From NCBI RefSeq assembly GCF_009914755.1, contig NC_060925.1: a stretch of DNA of 64,000 bases, one strand, 5' to 3'. The notes beneath the pieces are model-generated. The model had not been told where the DNA came from, did not search any database, and saw nothing but the letters and a program-made list of their open reading frames with translations. The stretch comes from the human T2T-CHM13v2.0 reference genome, Homo sapiens. Positions 256-9,774 of this stretch are shown piece by piece (the first letter of the stretch is position 1; every line of letters begins with the position of its first letter). The position numbers and the translations under genes are program-made.

Positions 256-496
256 AGCATCAGCAGGAGCTGGCACAGGACCCGGCTCCCCCTCGGCTGC
301 CCCTTTGGACCAGAACAAGAAAAGGAGCAGCAGCATAGCCTCCACCCTGGGGCTGAAAAAGCTCTTCTCAGCCCTGGGCCAGAGTTCCCGGCCCAAGCTG
401 GGCAAGTCCCGCAGCTACAGTGTGGAGCAGTTGCAGCCCGCCCCGCCTGGCCTGACGTCACAGTCCAGGGCCCCATCGTTACAATCCCTGCACCCG
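256..496 (+). CDS. KIAA1614: KIAA1614 internal coding exon ([41 protein letters not shown]...LQSLHP)
   Basis: Acceptor ttgtgtttcag| at 255, donor ccg|gtgagt at 497; open frame (ORF 245..559); phase 0 join to exon at 3625; peptide recognised from memory as KIAA1614. Confidence 0.88.
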
Positions 497-3624: not shown

Positions 3625-3752
3625 GTGTCACCCTCTCACCAGCGTCGGAAAGCTGCCTCTTTTCAGAACCTCCATTCTCTGCTGAGCAGCAAGGGGGACC
3701 GGTCCAGCCTCTACCTGGTAGCAGGGCCAGGGGACCACAGTGCAGCTGGCAG
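3625..3752 (+). CDS. KIAA1614: KIAA1614 coding exon ([43 protein letters not shown])
   Basis: Acceptor ccctttctcatcag| at 3624, donor cag|gtatga at 3753; 128 nt, phase 0 in and phase 2 out, consistent with both neighbours. Confidence 0.88.
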
Positions 3753-3977: not shown

Positions 3978-5057
3978 GGAGGGGGTAGAGTTGGCCGGTT
4001 TGATTCCACTGTCCCTCTGCTGTGCAATGACATCTTGAAATCAGAAAGTTTAGAGAGTTTTCTTAGCCCAGCTAAAGATCTGAATAAACACATAGAGACA
4101 GAGGCCCCCAAAGAGGCCCGTGACCCATGACCTGCTTGGAAAATCCCACCCTGTCCGATGAGGCCCTGTAGGCTGGCTGCTCTTTCCTGGGGCGTGGATG
4201 TACTTCAGGTGTATGTTAGCTCCTGGAAATGTGACATAAAGTTATACCTTTTGTCAGATTCTTACAAAGGTCTCTGTACCCCCCAAAATTTGAAACCACT
4301 GCTTTGGGAGGGTGGGGTTTCTAGTTCCACAGCAGGCCTTGGGGGGCCTTGCACAGCGGCGGAAACCCACCAGTTTTGGCCCTAGCAGGCTCTTTTTGCT
4401 GGTTGAAGTCAGCAGAACCCCAGCCTCCAATGCCAGGCTCTTAAGTCTGTGAGGCATCGGTCATCTGTAAGCCAGGGAAGAGCTGTGCCCAGTGCCTGAT
4501 GCTTTTTGCCCTCACTGTGTCTCTGGTTCCCTCGCAGGCCGGCCAAGACTTCACCACGGCGTGCCCTCAGTGTGGAGGACGTGGGTGCTCCCAGCCTGGC
4601 TCGCACCGTGGGCCGCCTGGTGGAGGTGTTCCCAGACGGCACCAGCCAGCTGCAGCTGCAGCGCTCCCCAGGGGGCACTTTCGGCTTCTGCGTGGCCTCT
4701 GGGAATGGGCGCCCAGACTCAGGTATGCCCTCTCCTCTTCCTCAGCCCCATGGCTGGGGCGGCCTTAGCAAACAAGGCAGGGCCTTCTGGCTGTGGTCAG
4801 AGGCTTTTCTGGTCTTTGGCTGAGCCGTGCAGCTCTGGGAATTCAGAAAGCCTCTGACTACAGGACTAGGCTTCTCCCCTCAGGGGCTCTTTCTGAATTG
4901 TCCAGGGCTCTCTAGGAGTCTGCACCTGCAGAGCCTTTGCCCTAGGCAACTGCAGCTGAGAGTGCGTTGGTGGGGAGTGTGCGGGAGGGGGTAGAGTTGG
5001 CAGGTTTGACTCCACTGTCCCCCTGCTGTCTGATGACATCTTGAAATTAGAAGCTTA
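3978..5057 (+). repeat. Diverged ~75-bp direct repeat pair (3978-4053 and 4984-5057) flanking the 4538 exon
   Basis: GGAGGGGGTAGAGTTGGC(C/A)GGTTTGA(T/C)TCCACTGTCCC(T/C)CTGCTGT...ATGACATCTTGAAAT(C/T)AGAA in both copies. Confidence 0.9.
4538..4823 (+). CDS. KIAA1614: KIAA1614 exon; read-through form ends ...[36 protein letters not shown]; internal donor at 4722/4723
   Basis: Acceptor ggttccctcgcag| at 4537; ORF 4506..4823; internal tcag|gtatgc donor (phase 1). Confidence 0.88.
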
Positions 5058-5365
<308 letters not shown>

Positions 5366-6019
5366 TTAGAATTTTGAAGGCCATCTTTGCAGAGGAGAGC
5401 CAGAGGGAAACTGTCTGTGCCTGCTGGTTCTCAGCAGTCCCTTTGATGTGGCTGCGTTGAAACGGTTCCTTTCCTCCGGCTGTGGAGTATGTCTGGGCAC
5501 GTGGAGCATGCCTGTCTGTCTCTGCATCCCGTCCCTCCCTCAGGCCTGTGCCCGATGATTATGTTCAGATGAATCCTGGCTGCAGGCCTCTGACTGGGGT
5601 GTGCTCTGGGTCTCAATTCAACCCAGGCAATGGCAGGGAGAAGTCCTGGACATCATTCTGCACTCTGACCAGTTCTCAGTTCCACCCCATCCATGAGTCT
5701 TTCAGGGCAACGTGACTTGCAAAAGCCCACGCCCAAGGTCTGTGGTCCAGAATGCATCTCAAGGGCCCATAAAAGACATTCCCCAGAGGATCAGGGAAGG
5801 AAGACACGTATGTGAGGGTGGGGAAGGAGGGGAGGGGAAGGAAGGAGAGAGAAAGGGAGAGACAGATACAGAAAGACGAACACAGAAGCCTGCTGCGGCC
5901 GGGCTCTGCCGATGGGGGGTTGAGTCCTGTGCTTTGATCTCCTAGCTCAATGCTGTTTAGCCTGGAAAAAAGTCTGCCTGCTACCACATTTGCAGACCAC
6001 AGCATGAGTTCTCATGTCT

Positions 6020-6790
6020 GTTCCATCATTGTTTCAGCAAATATATACTAAGCACCTACTATGTGTTATAGATATGGGGGATACAGCAGTAAATGGAACA
6101 GACCAAATCCCTATCCTCATGAATATACTACCCAGTGAGCAGTTAGATTGTATCTATAAAATGTGTACTCTTGTTATGTATAATGTGCTACGTATGTCAG
6201 ATGGTGAAAAGAAAGTTCTGAGAAACATACAGATAAAGCAGGTGTGGCAGGTGCTGGTATAGACAGGAGTGTGGGGAGGCTTTTCTGAGAAGATGACACT
6301 TGAGCAGGGCCGTGGATGGGGCGAGGAAGGGGCCCCATGGGTGTCTGGGGAAGAGCATTCCGGCAGACTGAACAGCAAGTGCGGAGCCCTGGTGGAGGGG
6401 CGAGCCTGGCCTGTGAGAACTGTGAGGGTCAGGCTGGACACTGCAGAGCAGGCAACGGGTTGGGAGGAGCAGAGTTTGGAAAGATGGGGTTGTGCCACTG
6501 TAAGGGGCTTTGGCTTTCATGCCGAATGAGATGGGAGCCACTAGAGGGCTCGGAGCGAGCACTGAGACTCTCTAATGTCTATGAGAATAGACCCCAGTGG
6601 GACACGGGTGGAGCCAGGGAGCCCTGTGTTGAAGCTATTTCAGCAGTCCAGGACAGAGACAGTGGTGCCTGGACTGGGAACGGCTGTGGAGATGGGGAGA
6701 GGGGAGAGGGGAGAGGGGACAGGGGTTGGATTCTGGTTGATTTGACTATTTGCTGATGAGCTGGACATGTAAGAGGAAGAGAGGACAGGT
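6020..6790 (-). mobile_element. L2 fragment
   Basis: cattgtttcagcaaatatatactaagcacctactatgtg resembles the antisense L2 3' end; purine-rich body follows. Confidence 0.6.
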
Positions 6791-6949
6791 CTCTGCCTAC
6801 TCTGGACCTCAGGAGGATAAAAAGTCCTTCCTCACAGGCCTTCCCGTAGCCTCCTCTCCCGTTAGGGGAGCAGGACAGGCCCCCCGGACAGGTGGTGTGA
6901 AGGCAGAGGCAGACAACGCAGCATGTTTGTGCTCCGGCACCTCTGCTGG

Positions 6950-7080
6950 CTATGTGATCTAGAGCAGGCGACATCCCCACTGAGCCTCACTCAGTTCCCT
7001 AATCTGTGAAATGAGGATGACAAAACCTACCTAGAAGAGTCATAAGGAGCATTTGGTAAGGCACACAGGAAAGGGCCTAG
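6950..7080. mobile_element. MIR fragment
   Basis: tgagcctc...cagttccctaatctgtgaaatgaggatgac MIR core. Confidence 0.55.
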
Positions 7081-9580
7081 CATTTTTCTTCCCTCCCCTT
7101 CAGAAAGAGAAAGTCTGGAGAAGAGAACCCCAGACAGGGACCAGCGTGATCCGCATTCACCTGTCGATGTGAGTGCACACACAACAGGTCATTGTACTCT
7201 GCCGCCCACCCTCCCCCAGAGTCCCTTTTTGCTCCCTTGTAGGCAGTGGGAGCCCCTCCCTGTCACCCGTCAGGGAGCTCTGATGGGCAGGGGTCTCTAG
7301 TGACCCAGGGCCCCCGGCACCCTCGCCTGAGTTGGTGCCAGCTCCCCGTTGTGCCCAGGCACTCCCTGGTCCTGCTGCCGTCATGGGCGCTGGATGGCAC
7401 ACAGGGGTCCCCACGCACATGAAGCCTGGCGAGTGCTGGGGCCTCCGTGTCCCAGGCCATCCTCCAACAGCAGAGGGTCGCTTCTTCCAGGCTCCAAGGG
7501 GCTGTGAGGAGGGCTGGCTTGCGCCCCGCACTGAACCGGCAGGATGCTGGTATTAACTTGCTGGCTTTCACATCCGACTCTATATGAGCCTGTGAGAACA
7601 GCAGGCTTTGCCTTCTGCTTCTAATTGGATACAACATAGAGATCACACATCCTCAACAAAGGCCATTTCCAGCAGACAATAAATGCCTATGACAGCAGGC
7701 TGTCATATTTGTGTCACGAATTTCAGTTGCGAAACCTACCCGAGTCTCCCCAAAATGGCAGGCGTGACGTCAGTGTCTGGCCTAGCTCTGGCAGCATTCT
7801 TTCAGGGTTTATCATTAGTCCCCACCTGCAACTCCCACAGCACATCAGACACTTCTCTGGGTTTGCCCCAGGGGCCCCTTCTTACCTGCCCCCTCCCCGT
7901 GCCACCAACCCGTAGACAGGGAGGGCAAGCAGTGAAAGGTCCATCTAGAGGAGGTAAAAGACAGGGCTGAGGGAAAACGCCTTGTACAGTCAGGATGGCA
8001 GATGTACTCTGTCAGGGAAGACAGCCCCACAGAAAAGGCTCGGCTTGGCCAAGAAGCAACAAAAGGGATTCTACACCTCAGACCAGGGAGGGGGAATGTG
8101 TACAAAGATTGGATTTACTAAATTCAGAGCCACAGACTTTCAGGTACTTCGGTGAAGATCAGTGCTCTTTCAAACTCACACTTCAGAGGCAGGCTTTAAA
8201 ACGCCTGACTTCTGTCAGGGCCACAGGCTGGGCTGCCCAAAGCTCCTACGGGGCTGGGGGATCCGAGAGAGGACTTCCCACTAGTCCAAGATGTGGTGAC
8301 TAGTTTCAAGCCAGAGATTGAGGAGCAGACCTGATGCCCTTTCGGGCCCCTGCTAAGAACCTGATTCGAGGAAAAGGAAGTGAAGACAGTAACGCGTGGG
8401 CAGTGGCCTCATGTCTGAAATGCAGAGTGAGCCGAGCTGGGCTGGGAACAGCGAGGGTGCCAAAGGCTGCGCTGAGCAGCCTGAATTCCGCCAGTGCTGA
8501 TGCCCACACCAGGGGTGTGCCCCGCAGTCCCTCCAGCAAACTCAGCTTGTGTCTCAGCCCCTGTGTCCACCCAGCATGAAGCATGGGCATCAGGGGGTCC
8601 AGCCTGCCCTGGGAGAGCCAGCACCTCACTTACTCTCCCAGGTGGGAGCAGCTGGAGGGGAATTTGAAAGGTTTCCAGCCGCGGTTGAGGCCGGCGGGCG
8701 GGGGTTGGGGGCAGGGGGCCTCCTCAGCTGGACACTTCCCAGCCCAGCCAGCCCAAGCCCCACAGGGCCTGCCCCACTGACGGGGGGCTCCCTGAGAGCC
8801 GGAGCCTGGCAAAGAAGCAGAGAAGCTAGTTCCCGCAGGCTGGCTCTTGGCACCTTCTAGACCCAGGCAGGGCCTCTTTGGGGTGGGGAGGAGGGGGCAT
8901 GTGCAGAAGAGGAGAGGGAGCCACCGCAGCTTTGAAATATGTGGCTAGAATTTTTATTTTTCCTGGGGTTTTTTGCTCAGATGCTTCCCCATCCCAATTG
9001 AGGAGCCATATCTGAGTAAGACTGAGGCCAGTGTCAGTCTTTGGCAATAGAGTGCAGCAAACCAGGCTTGGATGTGGCTCAGCCACTTTTGCTCTTCCGA
9101 TGATACCTTCCCACCACCCCGGCCTTTACGCTGGGCCTGGGTGACCTGAGGCAGCAACTGGATCATAGTGCCAGGCACTGAGTAGGTATGGTTCCTAATT
9201 TTTAAAAACTATTTTCCTCCCAATTCTACAAGAAAAGCTCATCTCAGAAAAAGATCAGCTCACTCACTGTCAGGTATAAATAAATGACAACAGTTTAACG
9301 CGTTATTTGCACTAGGAGCATTTCCACTTTAAAAGCAGAGACAGTGGAATGGAGTTAGACCATGGAGGAGGCGCACTGTATCTATGTCTAAAGCCAGTTG
9401 TGGTTGTGAGATGGAATAATGAGGGGTGTGTGTATGTGTGCATGCGCACAGAGAAGTGCCTGGTATGAGCACCTCCTCCCTGTGCCACACAAACAGCACC
9501 TCATCAACATGGTCAGCATTCCAGAGATGCACTTCTTCGATTTGGGTGTCATTGTGAAATTCTCCTGTTTTCCTCTGCAG

Positions 9581-9774
9581 GGATCTACGTGCAGGAGATG
9601 GCTGACATGAGCATGGCCAAGCTGTACTCAGGGCTGCTGGGGGTGGGCGATGAGATCCTCGAGGTGAACGGGGCCAAGGTGGCAGGGCTGGGCTTGGCTC
9701 ACATTAAGGAGCTCCTGGCCCACTCAGAGAGCTTGTCAATCCGTGTCCTGAGGCAGAGACCTGTCCCACGGTGA
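9581..9774 (+). CDS. KIAA1614: Alternative terminal KIAA1614 exon encoding the C-terminal half of a PDZ domain (GIYVQEMADMSMAKLYSGLLGVGDEILEVNGAKVAGLGLAHIKELLAHSESLSIRVLRQRPVPR*)
   Basis: Strong acceptor ttctcctgttttcctctgcag| at 9580; phase 1 matches the 4722 donor; PDZ signature GD-x-I-L-E-V-N-G; stop TGA 9772-9774. Confidence 0.85.

What the first reader, a model, noticed from the sequence alone, without database searches (positions are those of the whole stretch)
4581..4628. Degenerate semi-CRIB immediately N-terminal to the PDZ, as in Par6
Seen: [16 protein letters not shown] directly precedes the PDZ. Knowledge: Par6 has a semi-CRIB (ISLPQDFRQVSSVIDV in PARD6A, from memory) at the same position; it binds CDC42-GTP and allosterically switches the PDZ. 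The two align ungapped, with P, R, V and terminal V identical and I/V, V/L, I/V, D/E conservative. The CRIB Ser and Phe are replaced by G and A. Inference: KIAA1614 carries the whole CRIB-PDZ cassette, either regulated by a different Rho GTPase or acting as a CDC42-insensitive competitor of Par6.
Basis: partly seen in the sequence, partly recalled or inferred. Interest (0 to 1): 0.72.

Follow-up and report, generated by a model that had tools for sequence, protein, structure and literature searches.

The report
Par6-like CRIB remnant before KIAA1614 PDZ
The uncharacterised human protein KIAA1614 ends in a module that looks inherited from the same ancestor as the Cdc42-binding CRIB-PDZ unit of the polarity protein Par6, but the human copy has lost half of the residues that mark a GTPase-binding motif.

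Summary
Window 4581-4628 (+) encodes [16 protein letters not shown], six residues before the Pfam start of a PDZ domain.

The PDZ is split over exons 4538-4722 and 9581-9774. The RefSeq-selected transcript retains the intron between them and truncates the PDZ.

The segment is as conserved as the PDZ in 53 vertebrate representatives. It belongs to a bilaterian family of about 1000-residue proteins. Invertebrate members carry a motif closer to the Par6 semi-CRIB; amphioxus has V-S-x-P-x-x-F-R-x-I.

A 30-sequence family profile hits Par6 CRIB-PDZ chains best in the PDB (E 5e-14). The amphioxus protein alone does the same.

Against this, the near-human sequence alone stops at the PDZ and does not rank Par6 first. 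An invertebrate-only profile also stops at the PDZ. No Pfam PBD hit was found.

Verdict: homology of the cassette is likely (about 0.75). GTPase binding by the human form is untested and doubtful, because the CRIB Ser and Phe are lost. No paper links KIAA1614 to Par6 or CRIB.

The parts
4581..4628 (+). 16-residue semi-CRIB-like segment [16 protein letters not shown]. The family core is hydrophobic-x-x-P-x-x-x-R-x-hydrophobic-G-[RK]-hydrophobic.
   Evidence: Translation. Conservation 0.63-0.74 in 53 vertebrate representatives. In 231 family members: P 221, R 220, G 227. Aligned to the Par6 semi-CRIB.
4554..4580 (+). Conserved basic-Ser motif PRRALSVED directly upstream. The conserved block starts here.
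   Evidence: Conservation jumps from 0.22 to 0.74 at this point. Coordinates. A kinase-site reading is inference only.
4629..4646 (+). Linker FPDGTS between the motif and the PDZ. D-G is nearly invariant in the family.
4647..4722 (+). First part of the PDZ (strand beta1, the TFGF carboxylate-binding loop, beta2-beta3), up to the splice donor.
   Evidence: Pfam PDZ on P0001 covers 1135-1210. Exon end and GT donor. This piece alone gives no Pfam hit.
9581..9774 (+). Second part of the PDZ and the stop codon (9772-9774). It is joined to 4722 only in the alternative transcript.
   Evidence: Pfam PDZ E 7e-6. Best PDB relatives are Par6 chains. Acceptor and stop.
4723..4823 (+). Read-through tail of the RefSeq-selected transcript (retained intron). 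It replaces the second half of the PDZ.
   Evidence: Tails in other species differ in frame and length.

Best explanation
The 16-mer is the degenerate vertebrate form of a Par6-type semi-CRIB. With the split PDZ it forms a CRIB-PDZ-like module at the C-terminus of KIAA1614, inherited from a bilaterian ancestor shared with, or derived from, the Par6 module.

Shown: conservation, family membership, and alignment to Par6 through the CRIB.

Inferred: as in Par6, the second half of the segment (R-x-V-G-R-L-V) pairs as a strand with PDZ strand beta1 and so sets the carboxylate-binding loop. The segment would then be a built-in regulator of PDZ ligand binding whose free edge can take a partner.

In vertebrates the CRIB Ser and Phe positions are lost while Pro, Arg and the hydrophobic positions are kept. 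Par6-like Cdc42 binding is therefore unlikely to survive unchanged in human. Invertebrate members are better candidates for it.

The complete module exists only in the spliced (alternative) human transcript.
For: (1) The segment is under constraint. Mean column identity in 53 vertebrate representatives is 0.11-0.35 upstream, and 0.74, 0.63 and 0.74 over [20 protein letters not shown] and [10 protein letters not shown]. That is as high as the PDZ.

(2) Family. An exhaustive profile search found 785 proteins at E<=1e-3. Named invertebrate members come from amphioxus, hemichordates, echinoderms, a brachiopod, an annelid, nemerteans and bivalves. hhalign of the amniote against the invertebrate alignment gives 99.8% probability and E 5.5e-28 over columns 1-113, with the 16-mer included. 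A second motif, [RK]-x-P-S-L-[QR]-S-L, sits about 165-195 residues from the C-terminus in 17 of 24 invertebrate and 40 of 53 vertebrate members. It has 0 hits in 55,666 other positions.

(3) The PDZ is Par6-like. Profile A2 (30 sequences) against the PDB gives Par6 chains 49.4-55.2 bits. The best single-PDZ chain outside Par6 gets 40.7 bits (1ihj_A). With profile A3 the top 8 of 14 hits are Par6. With amphioxus P0212, 7 of 7 hits at E<=1e-6 are Par6.

(4) The alignment passes the PDZ boundary. They score 4-5 bits (A2) or about 8 bits (P0212) above PDZ-only constructs of the same protein. None of the 52 non-Par6 chains shown starts before column 26.

(5) Invertebrate motifs are closer to the semi-CRIB. 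Phe stands at the CRIB Phe position in 11 of 26 invertebrate members, and amphioxus has V-S-x-P-x-x-F-R-x-I.

(6) A PSSM of the 16 columns gives PAR-6B +4.3 bits and fly Par-6 -2.1 bits (my hand sums). None of 179 control pre-PDZ flanks reaches -2.1; their maximum is -3.5.

(7) The conserved Pro aligns with PARD6B P136 (9ejk_C numbering). P136 is stated to be needed for Cdc42 binding (PMC5968619, Fig. 2 legend). V19/G20 align with V142/S143, which pair with C161 of beta1 in simulations of 1NF3 (preprint 10.1101/575233, passages read).
Against: The near-human protein P0001 searched alone ranks PDZD7 first (E 3.3e-4) and Par-6 fourth (E 1.2e-3). Its alignments to CRIB-containing chains start inside the PDZ.

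Teleost P0141 gives only partial PDZ alignments.

The invertebrate-only profile A3 starts its Par6 alignments at the PFGFYI loop, and CRIB-PDZ chains score no better than PDZ-only chains.

With the amniote profile A1, Par6 (29.6 bits) barely beats other PDZ domains (28.5 bits).

The exon peptide alone finds no Par6 chain and no Pfam family, PBD included. No PBD hit appeared in 19 full-length members.

The family-invariant Gly and the basic residue after it are Ser-Ser or Ser-Ala in Par6, which costs about 13 bits in the PSSM.

One of 179 control flanks matches the first ten columns as well as Par6 does.

No Par6 family alignment could be obtained, so no true profile-profile test against Par6 was run. 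No structure could be predicted.
Confidence: 0.7

Rival explanations
1. The human segment is a working GTPase-binding semi-CRIB, and a Rho-family GTPase (Cdc42 or another) binds it and switches the PDZ allosterically.
For: There is homology to the Par6 module. The Pro equivalent to P136 is kept in 221 of 231 members. Ser stands at the CRIB Ser position in 45 of 114 members of the mostly mammalian set. One paper's table lists KIAA1614 under GO:0017048, Rho GTPase binding (PMC11249618, passage read); this is probably an electronic annotation.
Against: Human has Gly and Ala at the CRIB Ser and Phe positions. Phe is absent in all 205 vertebrate-type members. A WASp CRIB was disabled with a triple substitution that includes the Phe, F240D with H242D and H245D (PMC6703713, methods passage). 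Tetrapods also changed the loop Pro (P to T) and the alphaB residues shared with Par6. There is no PBD match. There are no binding data.
Confidence: 0.2
2. Homologous relic put to another use. The strand is kept for PDZ folding or regulation, but the partner is not a GTPase. Candidates are phosphorylation of the adjacent PRRALSVED serine, or a protein such as the WD40 protein Morg1, which binds the Par6 semi-CRIB plus PDZ.
For: The most conserved positions are R17, G20 and [RK]21, not the CRIB signature residues. The basic-Ser motif directly upstream is as conserved as the PDZ. Morg1 needs both the semi-CRIB and the PDZ of Par6 (PMC3587828, passages read).
Against: No test of phosphorylation or of any partner was possible here. 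This reading overlaps with the best explanation rather than excluding it.
Confidence: 0.35
3. Chance or convergent likeness. The segment is a family-specific N-terminal PDZ extension with no common origin with the semi-CRIB.
For: Single-sequence searches with P0001 and P0141, and profile A3, stop at the PDZ. The CRIB region adds only 4-5 bits with profile A2. One control flank matches the ten-column core equally well.
Against: The PDZ itself is specifically Par6-like, with about a 10-bit gap to other PDZ domains. The motif sits at the same distance from the PDZ, two residues closer. It becomes more CRIB-like in slowly evolving invertebrate orthologues. None of 179 control flanks reaches the 16-column Par6 scores.
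Confidence: 0.12

Closest known systems
Par6 (PARD6A/B/G, fly Par-6) semi-CRIB-PDZ module; PDB 1NF3, 1RY4, 2LC6, 9EJK
   Same: A short motif immediately before a single PDZ, with shared hydrophobic-x-x-P-x-x-(F)-R-x-V and two hydrophobic residues. The PDZ is closest to the Par6 PDZ: invertebrate members share G-F-Y-I, G-I-F-[IV]-S-R-L and L-D-[QD]-V. The likeness even continues into P-x-x-x-R after the last strand.
   Different: KIAA1614 has no PB1 domain. It has a roughly 1000-residue, mostly unconserved N-terminal part, with DUF4685 in vertebrates. An invariant Gly and a basic residue stand where Par6 has Ser-Ser or Ser-Ala. The linker is two residues shorter, and the eight-residue beta2-beta3 insertion of Par6 is missing. 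Vertebrates lack the CRIB Ser and Phe. GTPase binding is unknown.
Canonical CRIB / PBD motifs of PAK, WASP and ACK (Pfam PF00786)
   Same: A hydrophobic residue and a Pro at the start of the motif. Phe is present in some invertebrate members.
   Different: There is no match to the PBD model. The two His residues of the full CRIB consensus (consensus recalled, not from a call) are absent, as they are in Par6.
Other PDZ domains
   Same: A PF00595 match for the spliced product.
   Different: Of the 52 non-Par6 PDZ chains shown, none aligns with the family profile upstream of column 26.

Membership tests
Par6 family | N-terminal PB1 domain that binds aPKC | tested here: not met
   Pfam on P0001 and P0097 and on 17 further members finds only DUF4685 and/or PDZ, with no PB1.
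Par6 family | Semi-CRIB (I-S-x-P-x-x-F-R-x-V...) immediately before the PDZ | tested here: inconclusive
   Position and register match. Human keeps hydrophobic, P, R and V but has G for S and A for F. Amphioxus has V-S-x-P-x-x-F-R-x-I. Searches with P0001 and A3 do not align this part.
Par6 family | PDZ most similar to Par6 PDZ domains | tested here: met
   This holds at family level, and for the human second PDZ exon (7 of the top 8 chains are Par6). It does not hold for full-length primate P0001 searched alone.
Par6 family | GTP-dependent binding of Cdc42/Rac to the CRIB-PDZ | not testable with these tools
CRIB / PBD (Pfam PF00786) | Match to the PBD profile | tested here: not met
   There was no PBD hit at E<=10 for the exon peptide, at E<=1 for P0001 and P0097, or at E<=10 for 17 members. 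HMMER filters drop most hits above about 0.1.
PDZ domain (Pfam PF00595) | Match above the gathering score | tested here: met
   P0001 residues 1135-1210 score 32.3 bits against a cut-off of 23.2. The human second exon piece scores 26.8 bits. The read-through product of the selected transcript gives no match.
KIAA1614 / DUF4685 family | DUF4685 plus a C-terminal PDZ | tested here: met
   P0001 matches DUF4685 with E 2.6e-48 and also has the PDZ. The same holds in P0097, P0141, P0149, P0184 and P0190. Invertebrate members lack a DUF4685 match.

The most novel reading that the evidence does not exclude
KIAA1614 and its bilaterian orthologues are a second family of CRIB-PDZ scaffolds beside Par6. 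A Rho-family GTPase (or another partner of the exposed strand) switches their C-terminal PDZ. The tetrapod form, with changed CRIB, loop and alphaB residues, has been retuned to a different GTPase or ligand, or acts as a GTPase-insensitive competitor for Par6-type PDZ ligands. Retention of the last intron would then switch the whole module off.
Probability: 0.2. Interest if true: 0.75.

Novelty: new variant of a known kind. Interest (0 to 1): 0.55.

Why it matters
As far as I recall (no call supports this), the semi-CRIB-PDZ unit is treated as a hallmark of Par6 and as a textbook case of GTPase-driven PDZ allostery. A second, ancient family with the same cassette on a different scaffold would give a natural comparison for how that allostery evolves and decays. 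It would also give a first concrete handle on an uncharacterised human gene.

It also explains why the likeness may have gone unnoticed. The reference human protein is the intron-retaining form without a complete PDZ.

The finding is not wholly new to databases. An amphioxus orthologue is auto-named PARD6A. A GO term for Rho GTPase binding is attached to KIAA1614 in one paper's table.

No paper in the searchable library holds KIAA1614 together with Par6 or with CRIB. In the 8 papers that hold KIAA1614 and PDZ, I read KIAA1614 passages in two and saw no discussion of the domain.

Tried and rejected
There is therefore no model and no fold search.

I stopped that step. Instead I scored the columns of the stored alignment A2 inside scripts.

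The last homologue search was meant to fetch Par6 proteins for a profile-profile test. It returned 7 family or PDZ proteins and no Par6, so hhalign against Par6 was not possible.

The ESM Atlas gave only generic PDZ clusters, best score 0.91.

The exon peptide alone against the PDB gave two chance hits to designed beta-trefoils.

Earlier findings of this scan were not open.

The Garrard 2003 and Whitney 2016 papers are not held. What I say about Cdc42 contacts therefore rests on secondary passages.

In the supplements of the podocyte Rho-GTPase BioID paper PMC12644026, KIAA1614 appears only in an RNA table, with base mean 77 against 4658 for PARD6B. One proteomics file was cut when stored. This says nothing either way.

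The search of KIAA1614 with PARD6A/B/G listed 15 of 214 papers, none with KIAA1614, and is uninformative.

Papers holding BC034090, the name one source gives a rodent (Phodopus) homologue, are omics lists by title and abstract.

Open frames on both strands around 4400-4900 showed nothing beyond GC-rich open frames.

Full report
**Observation**

Window 4581-4628 on the + strand translates to [16 protein letters not shown]. It lies in the reading frame of KIAA1614 exon 4538-4722, whose first full codon starts at 4539.

The domain that follows is a PDZ split by an intron.
- The exon ends at 4722 before a GT donor.
- The rest of the PDZ lies at 9581-9771, behind a good acceptor, and ends in a stop at 9772-9774.
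- The second piece alone matches Pfam PDZ (E 7e-6, profile positions 27-74 of 81). The first piece alone matches no family.
- In the nearly identical primate orthologue P0001 the PDZ match covers residues 1135-1210. That places its start at window 4647, six residues after the 16-mer.

The RefSeq-selected transcript of the hub's table does not splice here. It reads on to a stop at 4821-4823, and the product gives no PDZ match.

Among the first 120 homologues, a pattern classified 118.
- 88 have the spliced, complete PDZ.
- 30 continue otherwise, with tails that differ in frame and length.

The complete PDZ is therefore the conserved form.

**Is the likeness more than chance?**

- There are four identities (P, R, V, final V) and four conservative pairs.
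- Gly and Ala stand at the CRIB Ser and Phe positions.
- My hand-summed BLOSUM62 score against PAR-6B is 21, and 20 against fly Par-6.
- Only 37 of 199,749 control 16-mers from stored proteins reach 21.

**Conservation and family**

The exon peptide found 235 proteins at E<=0.01. The 120 listed are KIAA1614 homologues at 77-98% identity.

In 53 vertebrate representatives, mean column identity is 0.11-0.35 over most of the upstream region. There are a few short conserved motifs. Identity dips to 0.22 just before the block, then rises to 0.74, 0.63 and 0.74 over [20 protein letters not shown] and [10 protein letters not shown]. These values are as high as in the PDZ.

An exhaustive profile search with alignment A1 found 785 proteins at E<=1e-3. 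The single-domain hits have the module at their C-terminus, and most are about 700-1400 residues long.
- Vertebrate members have DUF4685 and PDZ.
- A more distant set has only PDZ by Pfam.
- That set comes from amphioxus, hemichordates, echinoderms, a brachiopod, an annelid, nemerteans and bivalves.

Two results tie the invertebrate set to KIAA1614.
- hhalign of the amniote alignment against the invertebrate alignment gives 99.8% probability and E 5.5e-28 over columns 1-113, including the 16-mer in register.
- A second motif, [RK]-x-P-S-L-[QR]-S-L, lies about 165-195 residues from the C-terminus in 17 of 24 invertebrate and 40 of 53 vertebrate members. It has no hit in 55,666 other positions. 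In human it is at window 467-490.

In 231 members with the pre-PDZ part covered, the conserved core is as follows:
- a hydrophobic residue at position 10;
- Pro at 13 in 221 members;
- Arg at 17 in 220;
- a hydrophobic residue at 19;
- Gly at 20 in 227;
- Arg or Lys at 21.

The CRIB Phe position (16) holds Phe in 11 of 26 invertebrate members and in 0 of 205 vertebrate-type members.

The CRIB Ser position (11) holds Ser in 7 of 26 invertebrate members, in 45 of the 114 mostly mammalian members and in 17 of 91 other vertebrate-type members.

**Relation to Par6: evidence for**

- The human second PDZ exon alone has Par6 chains as 7 of its 8 best PDB matches, best PARD6A at E 5.5e-5.
- The 30-sequence profile A2 gives Par6 chains 49.4-55.2 bits, best E 5e-14. 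The best single-PDZ chain outside Par6 gets 40.7 bits.
- With A2, all four chains that contain the CRIB align from column 7-9 to 115-117.
- With A2, CRIB-containing chains score 4-5 bits above PDZ-only constructs of the same protein.
- With A2, none of the 52 other chains shown starts before column 26.
- The amniote-only profile A1 also aligns from column 10, with posterior 7-9.
- Amphioxus P0212 searched alone finds only Par6 at E<=1e-6 (7 of 7). The CRIB-PDZ chains score 38.1-39.8 bits against 31.2-31.7 for PDZ-only chains. They align from V-S-x-P-x-x-F-R.
- In 9ejk_C numbering the alignment starts at residue 133. The conserved Pro therefore corresponds to P136. P136 is described as necessary for Cdc42 binding (PMC5968619, figure legend read).
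- A PSSM of the 16 columns, with my hand sums, gives PAR-6B +4.3 bits and fly Par-6 -2.1 bits. None of 179 control pre-PDZ flanks from 21 multi-PDZ proteins reaches -2.1.
- Among 202,144 control 16-mers, 9 reach +4.3. Five of those are unmasked true family modules.

**Relation to Par6: evidence against**

- The near-human protein searched alone ranks PDZD7 first and Par-6 fourth. It aligns only within the PDZ.
- A teleost member behaves likewise.
- The invertebrate-only profile A3 still ranks Par6 first, with the top 8 of 14 hits at E 5.8e-11 to 6.5e-10 and the next hit at 5.6e-7. However, it starts at the PFGFYI loop and gives no bonus to CRIB-containing chains. The alignment itself is sound there.
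- The reason is visible in the PSSM. The first ten columns fit Par6 well (+14.3 and +8.1 bits). The family-invariant Gly and the basic residue after it are Ser-Ser or Ser-Ala in Par6 and cost about 13 bits.
- One of 179 control flanks fits the first ten columns as well as Par6 does.
- No Pfam PBD match was seen anywhere.
- I could not obtain Par6 family sequences, so no profile-profile test against Par6 was run.

**What it most likely is**

The PDZ is specifically Par6-like. The pre-PDZ motif sits at the same place and in the same register, and it becomes more CRIB-like in invertebrate orthologues. The simplest reading is common descent of the whole cassette.

How it works is inferred, not shown.
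- In Par6 the semi-CRIB needs the PDZ to bind Cdc42, and binding changes PDZ ligand affinity (PMC3587828, PMC11774777, passages read).
- In simulations of 1NF3, V142/S143 of the CRIB pair with C161 of strand beta1, and Cdc42 N39 contacts S143 (preprint 10.1101/575233, passages read).
- These positions correspond to the family's hydrophobic-19/Gly-20 and to the residue before the conserved Arg/Lys of beta1.
- I therefore expect the second half of the 16-mer to be a strand on beta1 that tunes the carboxylate-binding loop.

Tetrapods have changed several Par6-like positions together:
- Phe to Ala or Val;
- the loop Pro to Thr;
- F-Y-I to F-C-V;
- the alphaB L-D-Q-V-T to L-A-H-I-K.

These sequences stay well conserved among mammals. 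This fits retuning or loss of the original partner rather than decay of the gene.

**Novelty**

- No paper in the library holds KIAA1614 with Par6 or with CRIB.
- Eight papers hold KIAA1614 and PDZ. The two whose KIAA1614 passages I read do not discuss the domain.
- Databases hint at the link. One amphioxus orthologue is auto-named PARD6A. One paper's table lists KIAA1614 under Rho GTPase binding. Only that paper and one other hold both terms.
- I rate the finding as a new variant of a known kind, of moderate interest.

Noticed in passing
window 4723-4823 and 4723-9580: The RefSeq-selected KIAA1614 transcript retains the last intron, so its protein ends after PDZ strand beta3 with a 33-residue tail. 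Tails of this kind in other species differ in frame and length. 88 of the 118 homologues that could be classified have the spliced, complete PDZ.
   Followed up: partly
window 404-433, 467-490, 3643-3672, 4554-4580: There are four similar basic-x-x-Ser-hydrophobic motifs ([37 protein letters not shown]) upstream of the module. They look like a series of basophilic kinase sites. The second is conserved from brachiopod to human at a fixed distance from the C-terminus.
   Followed up: partly
P0212 1109-1116 and other invertebrate orthologues (A2 columns 114-122): Invertebrate members end, right after the PDZ, in a conserved tail P-L-x-A-R-x-D-hydrophobic at the very C-terminus. HMMER aligns its P...R with the P-A-N-Q-R that follows the Par6 PDZ.
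   Followed up: no
A2 columns 42, 46, 96-100 (human window about 4677-4691 and 9671-9685): Fish and invertebrate members share P-F-G-F-(Y)-I and L-D-Q/D-V-T/Y with Par6. Tetrapods have T-F-G-F-C-V and L-A-H-I-K. The ligand pocket and the loop changed at the tetrapod stem.
   Followed up: partly
KIAA1614 residues 568-583 (outside the window): A KIAA1614 peptide is the top ligand of the USP8 rhodanese domain in phage display, with KD about 10 uM (PMC12057046, passages read).
   Followed up: no
P0263 (Branchiostoma lanceolatum) and PMC11249618: Automatic annotation already leans towards Par6. An amphioxus orthologue is named PARD6A, and a differential-expression table lists KIAA1614 under GO:0017048, Rho GTPase binding. 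I could not trace the source of either.
   Followed up: partly
P0246 residue 912 and P0256 residue 1549: Two multi-PDZ proteins of the control set hold ten-residue stretches that fit the first half of the family motif as well as Par6 does (15.1 and 15.3 bits). I did not look at them further.
   Followed up: no
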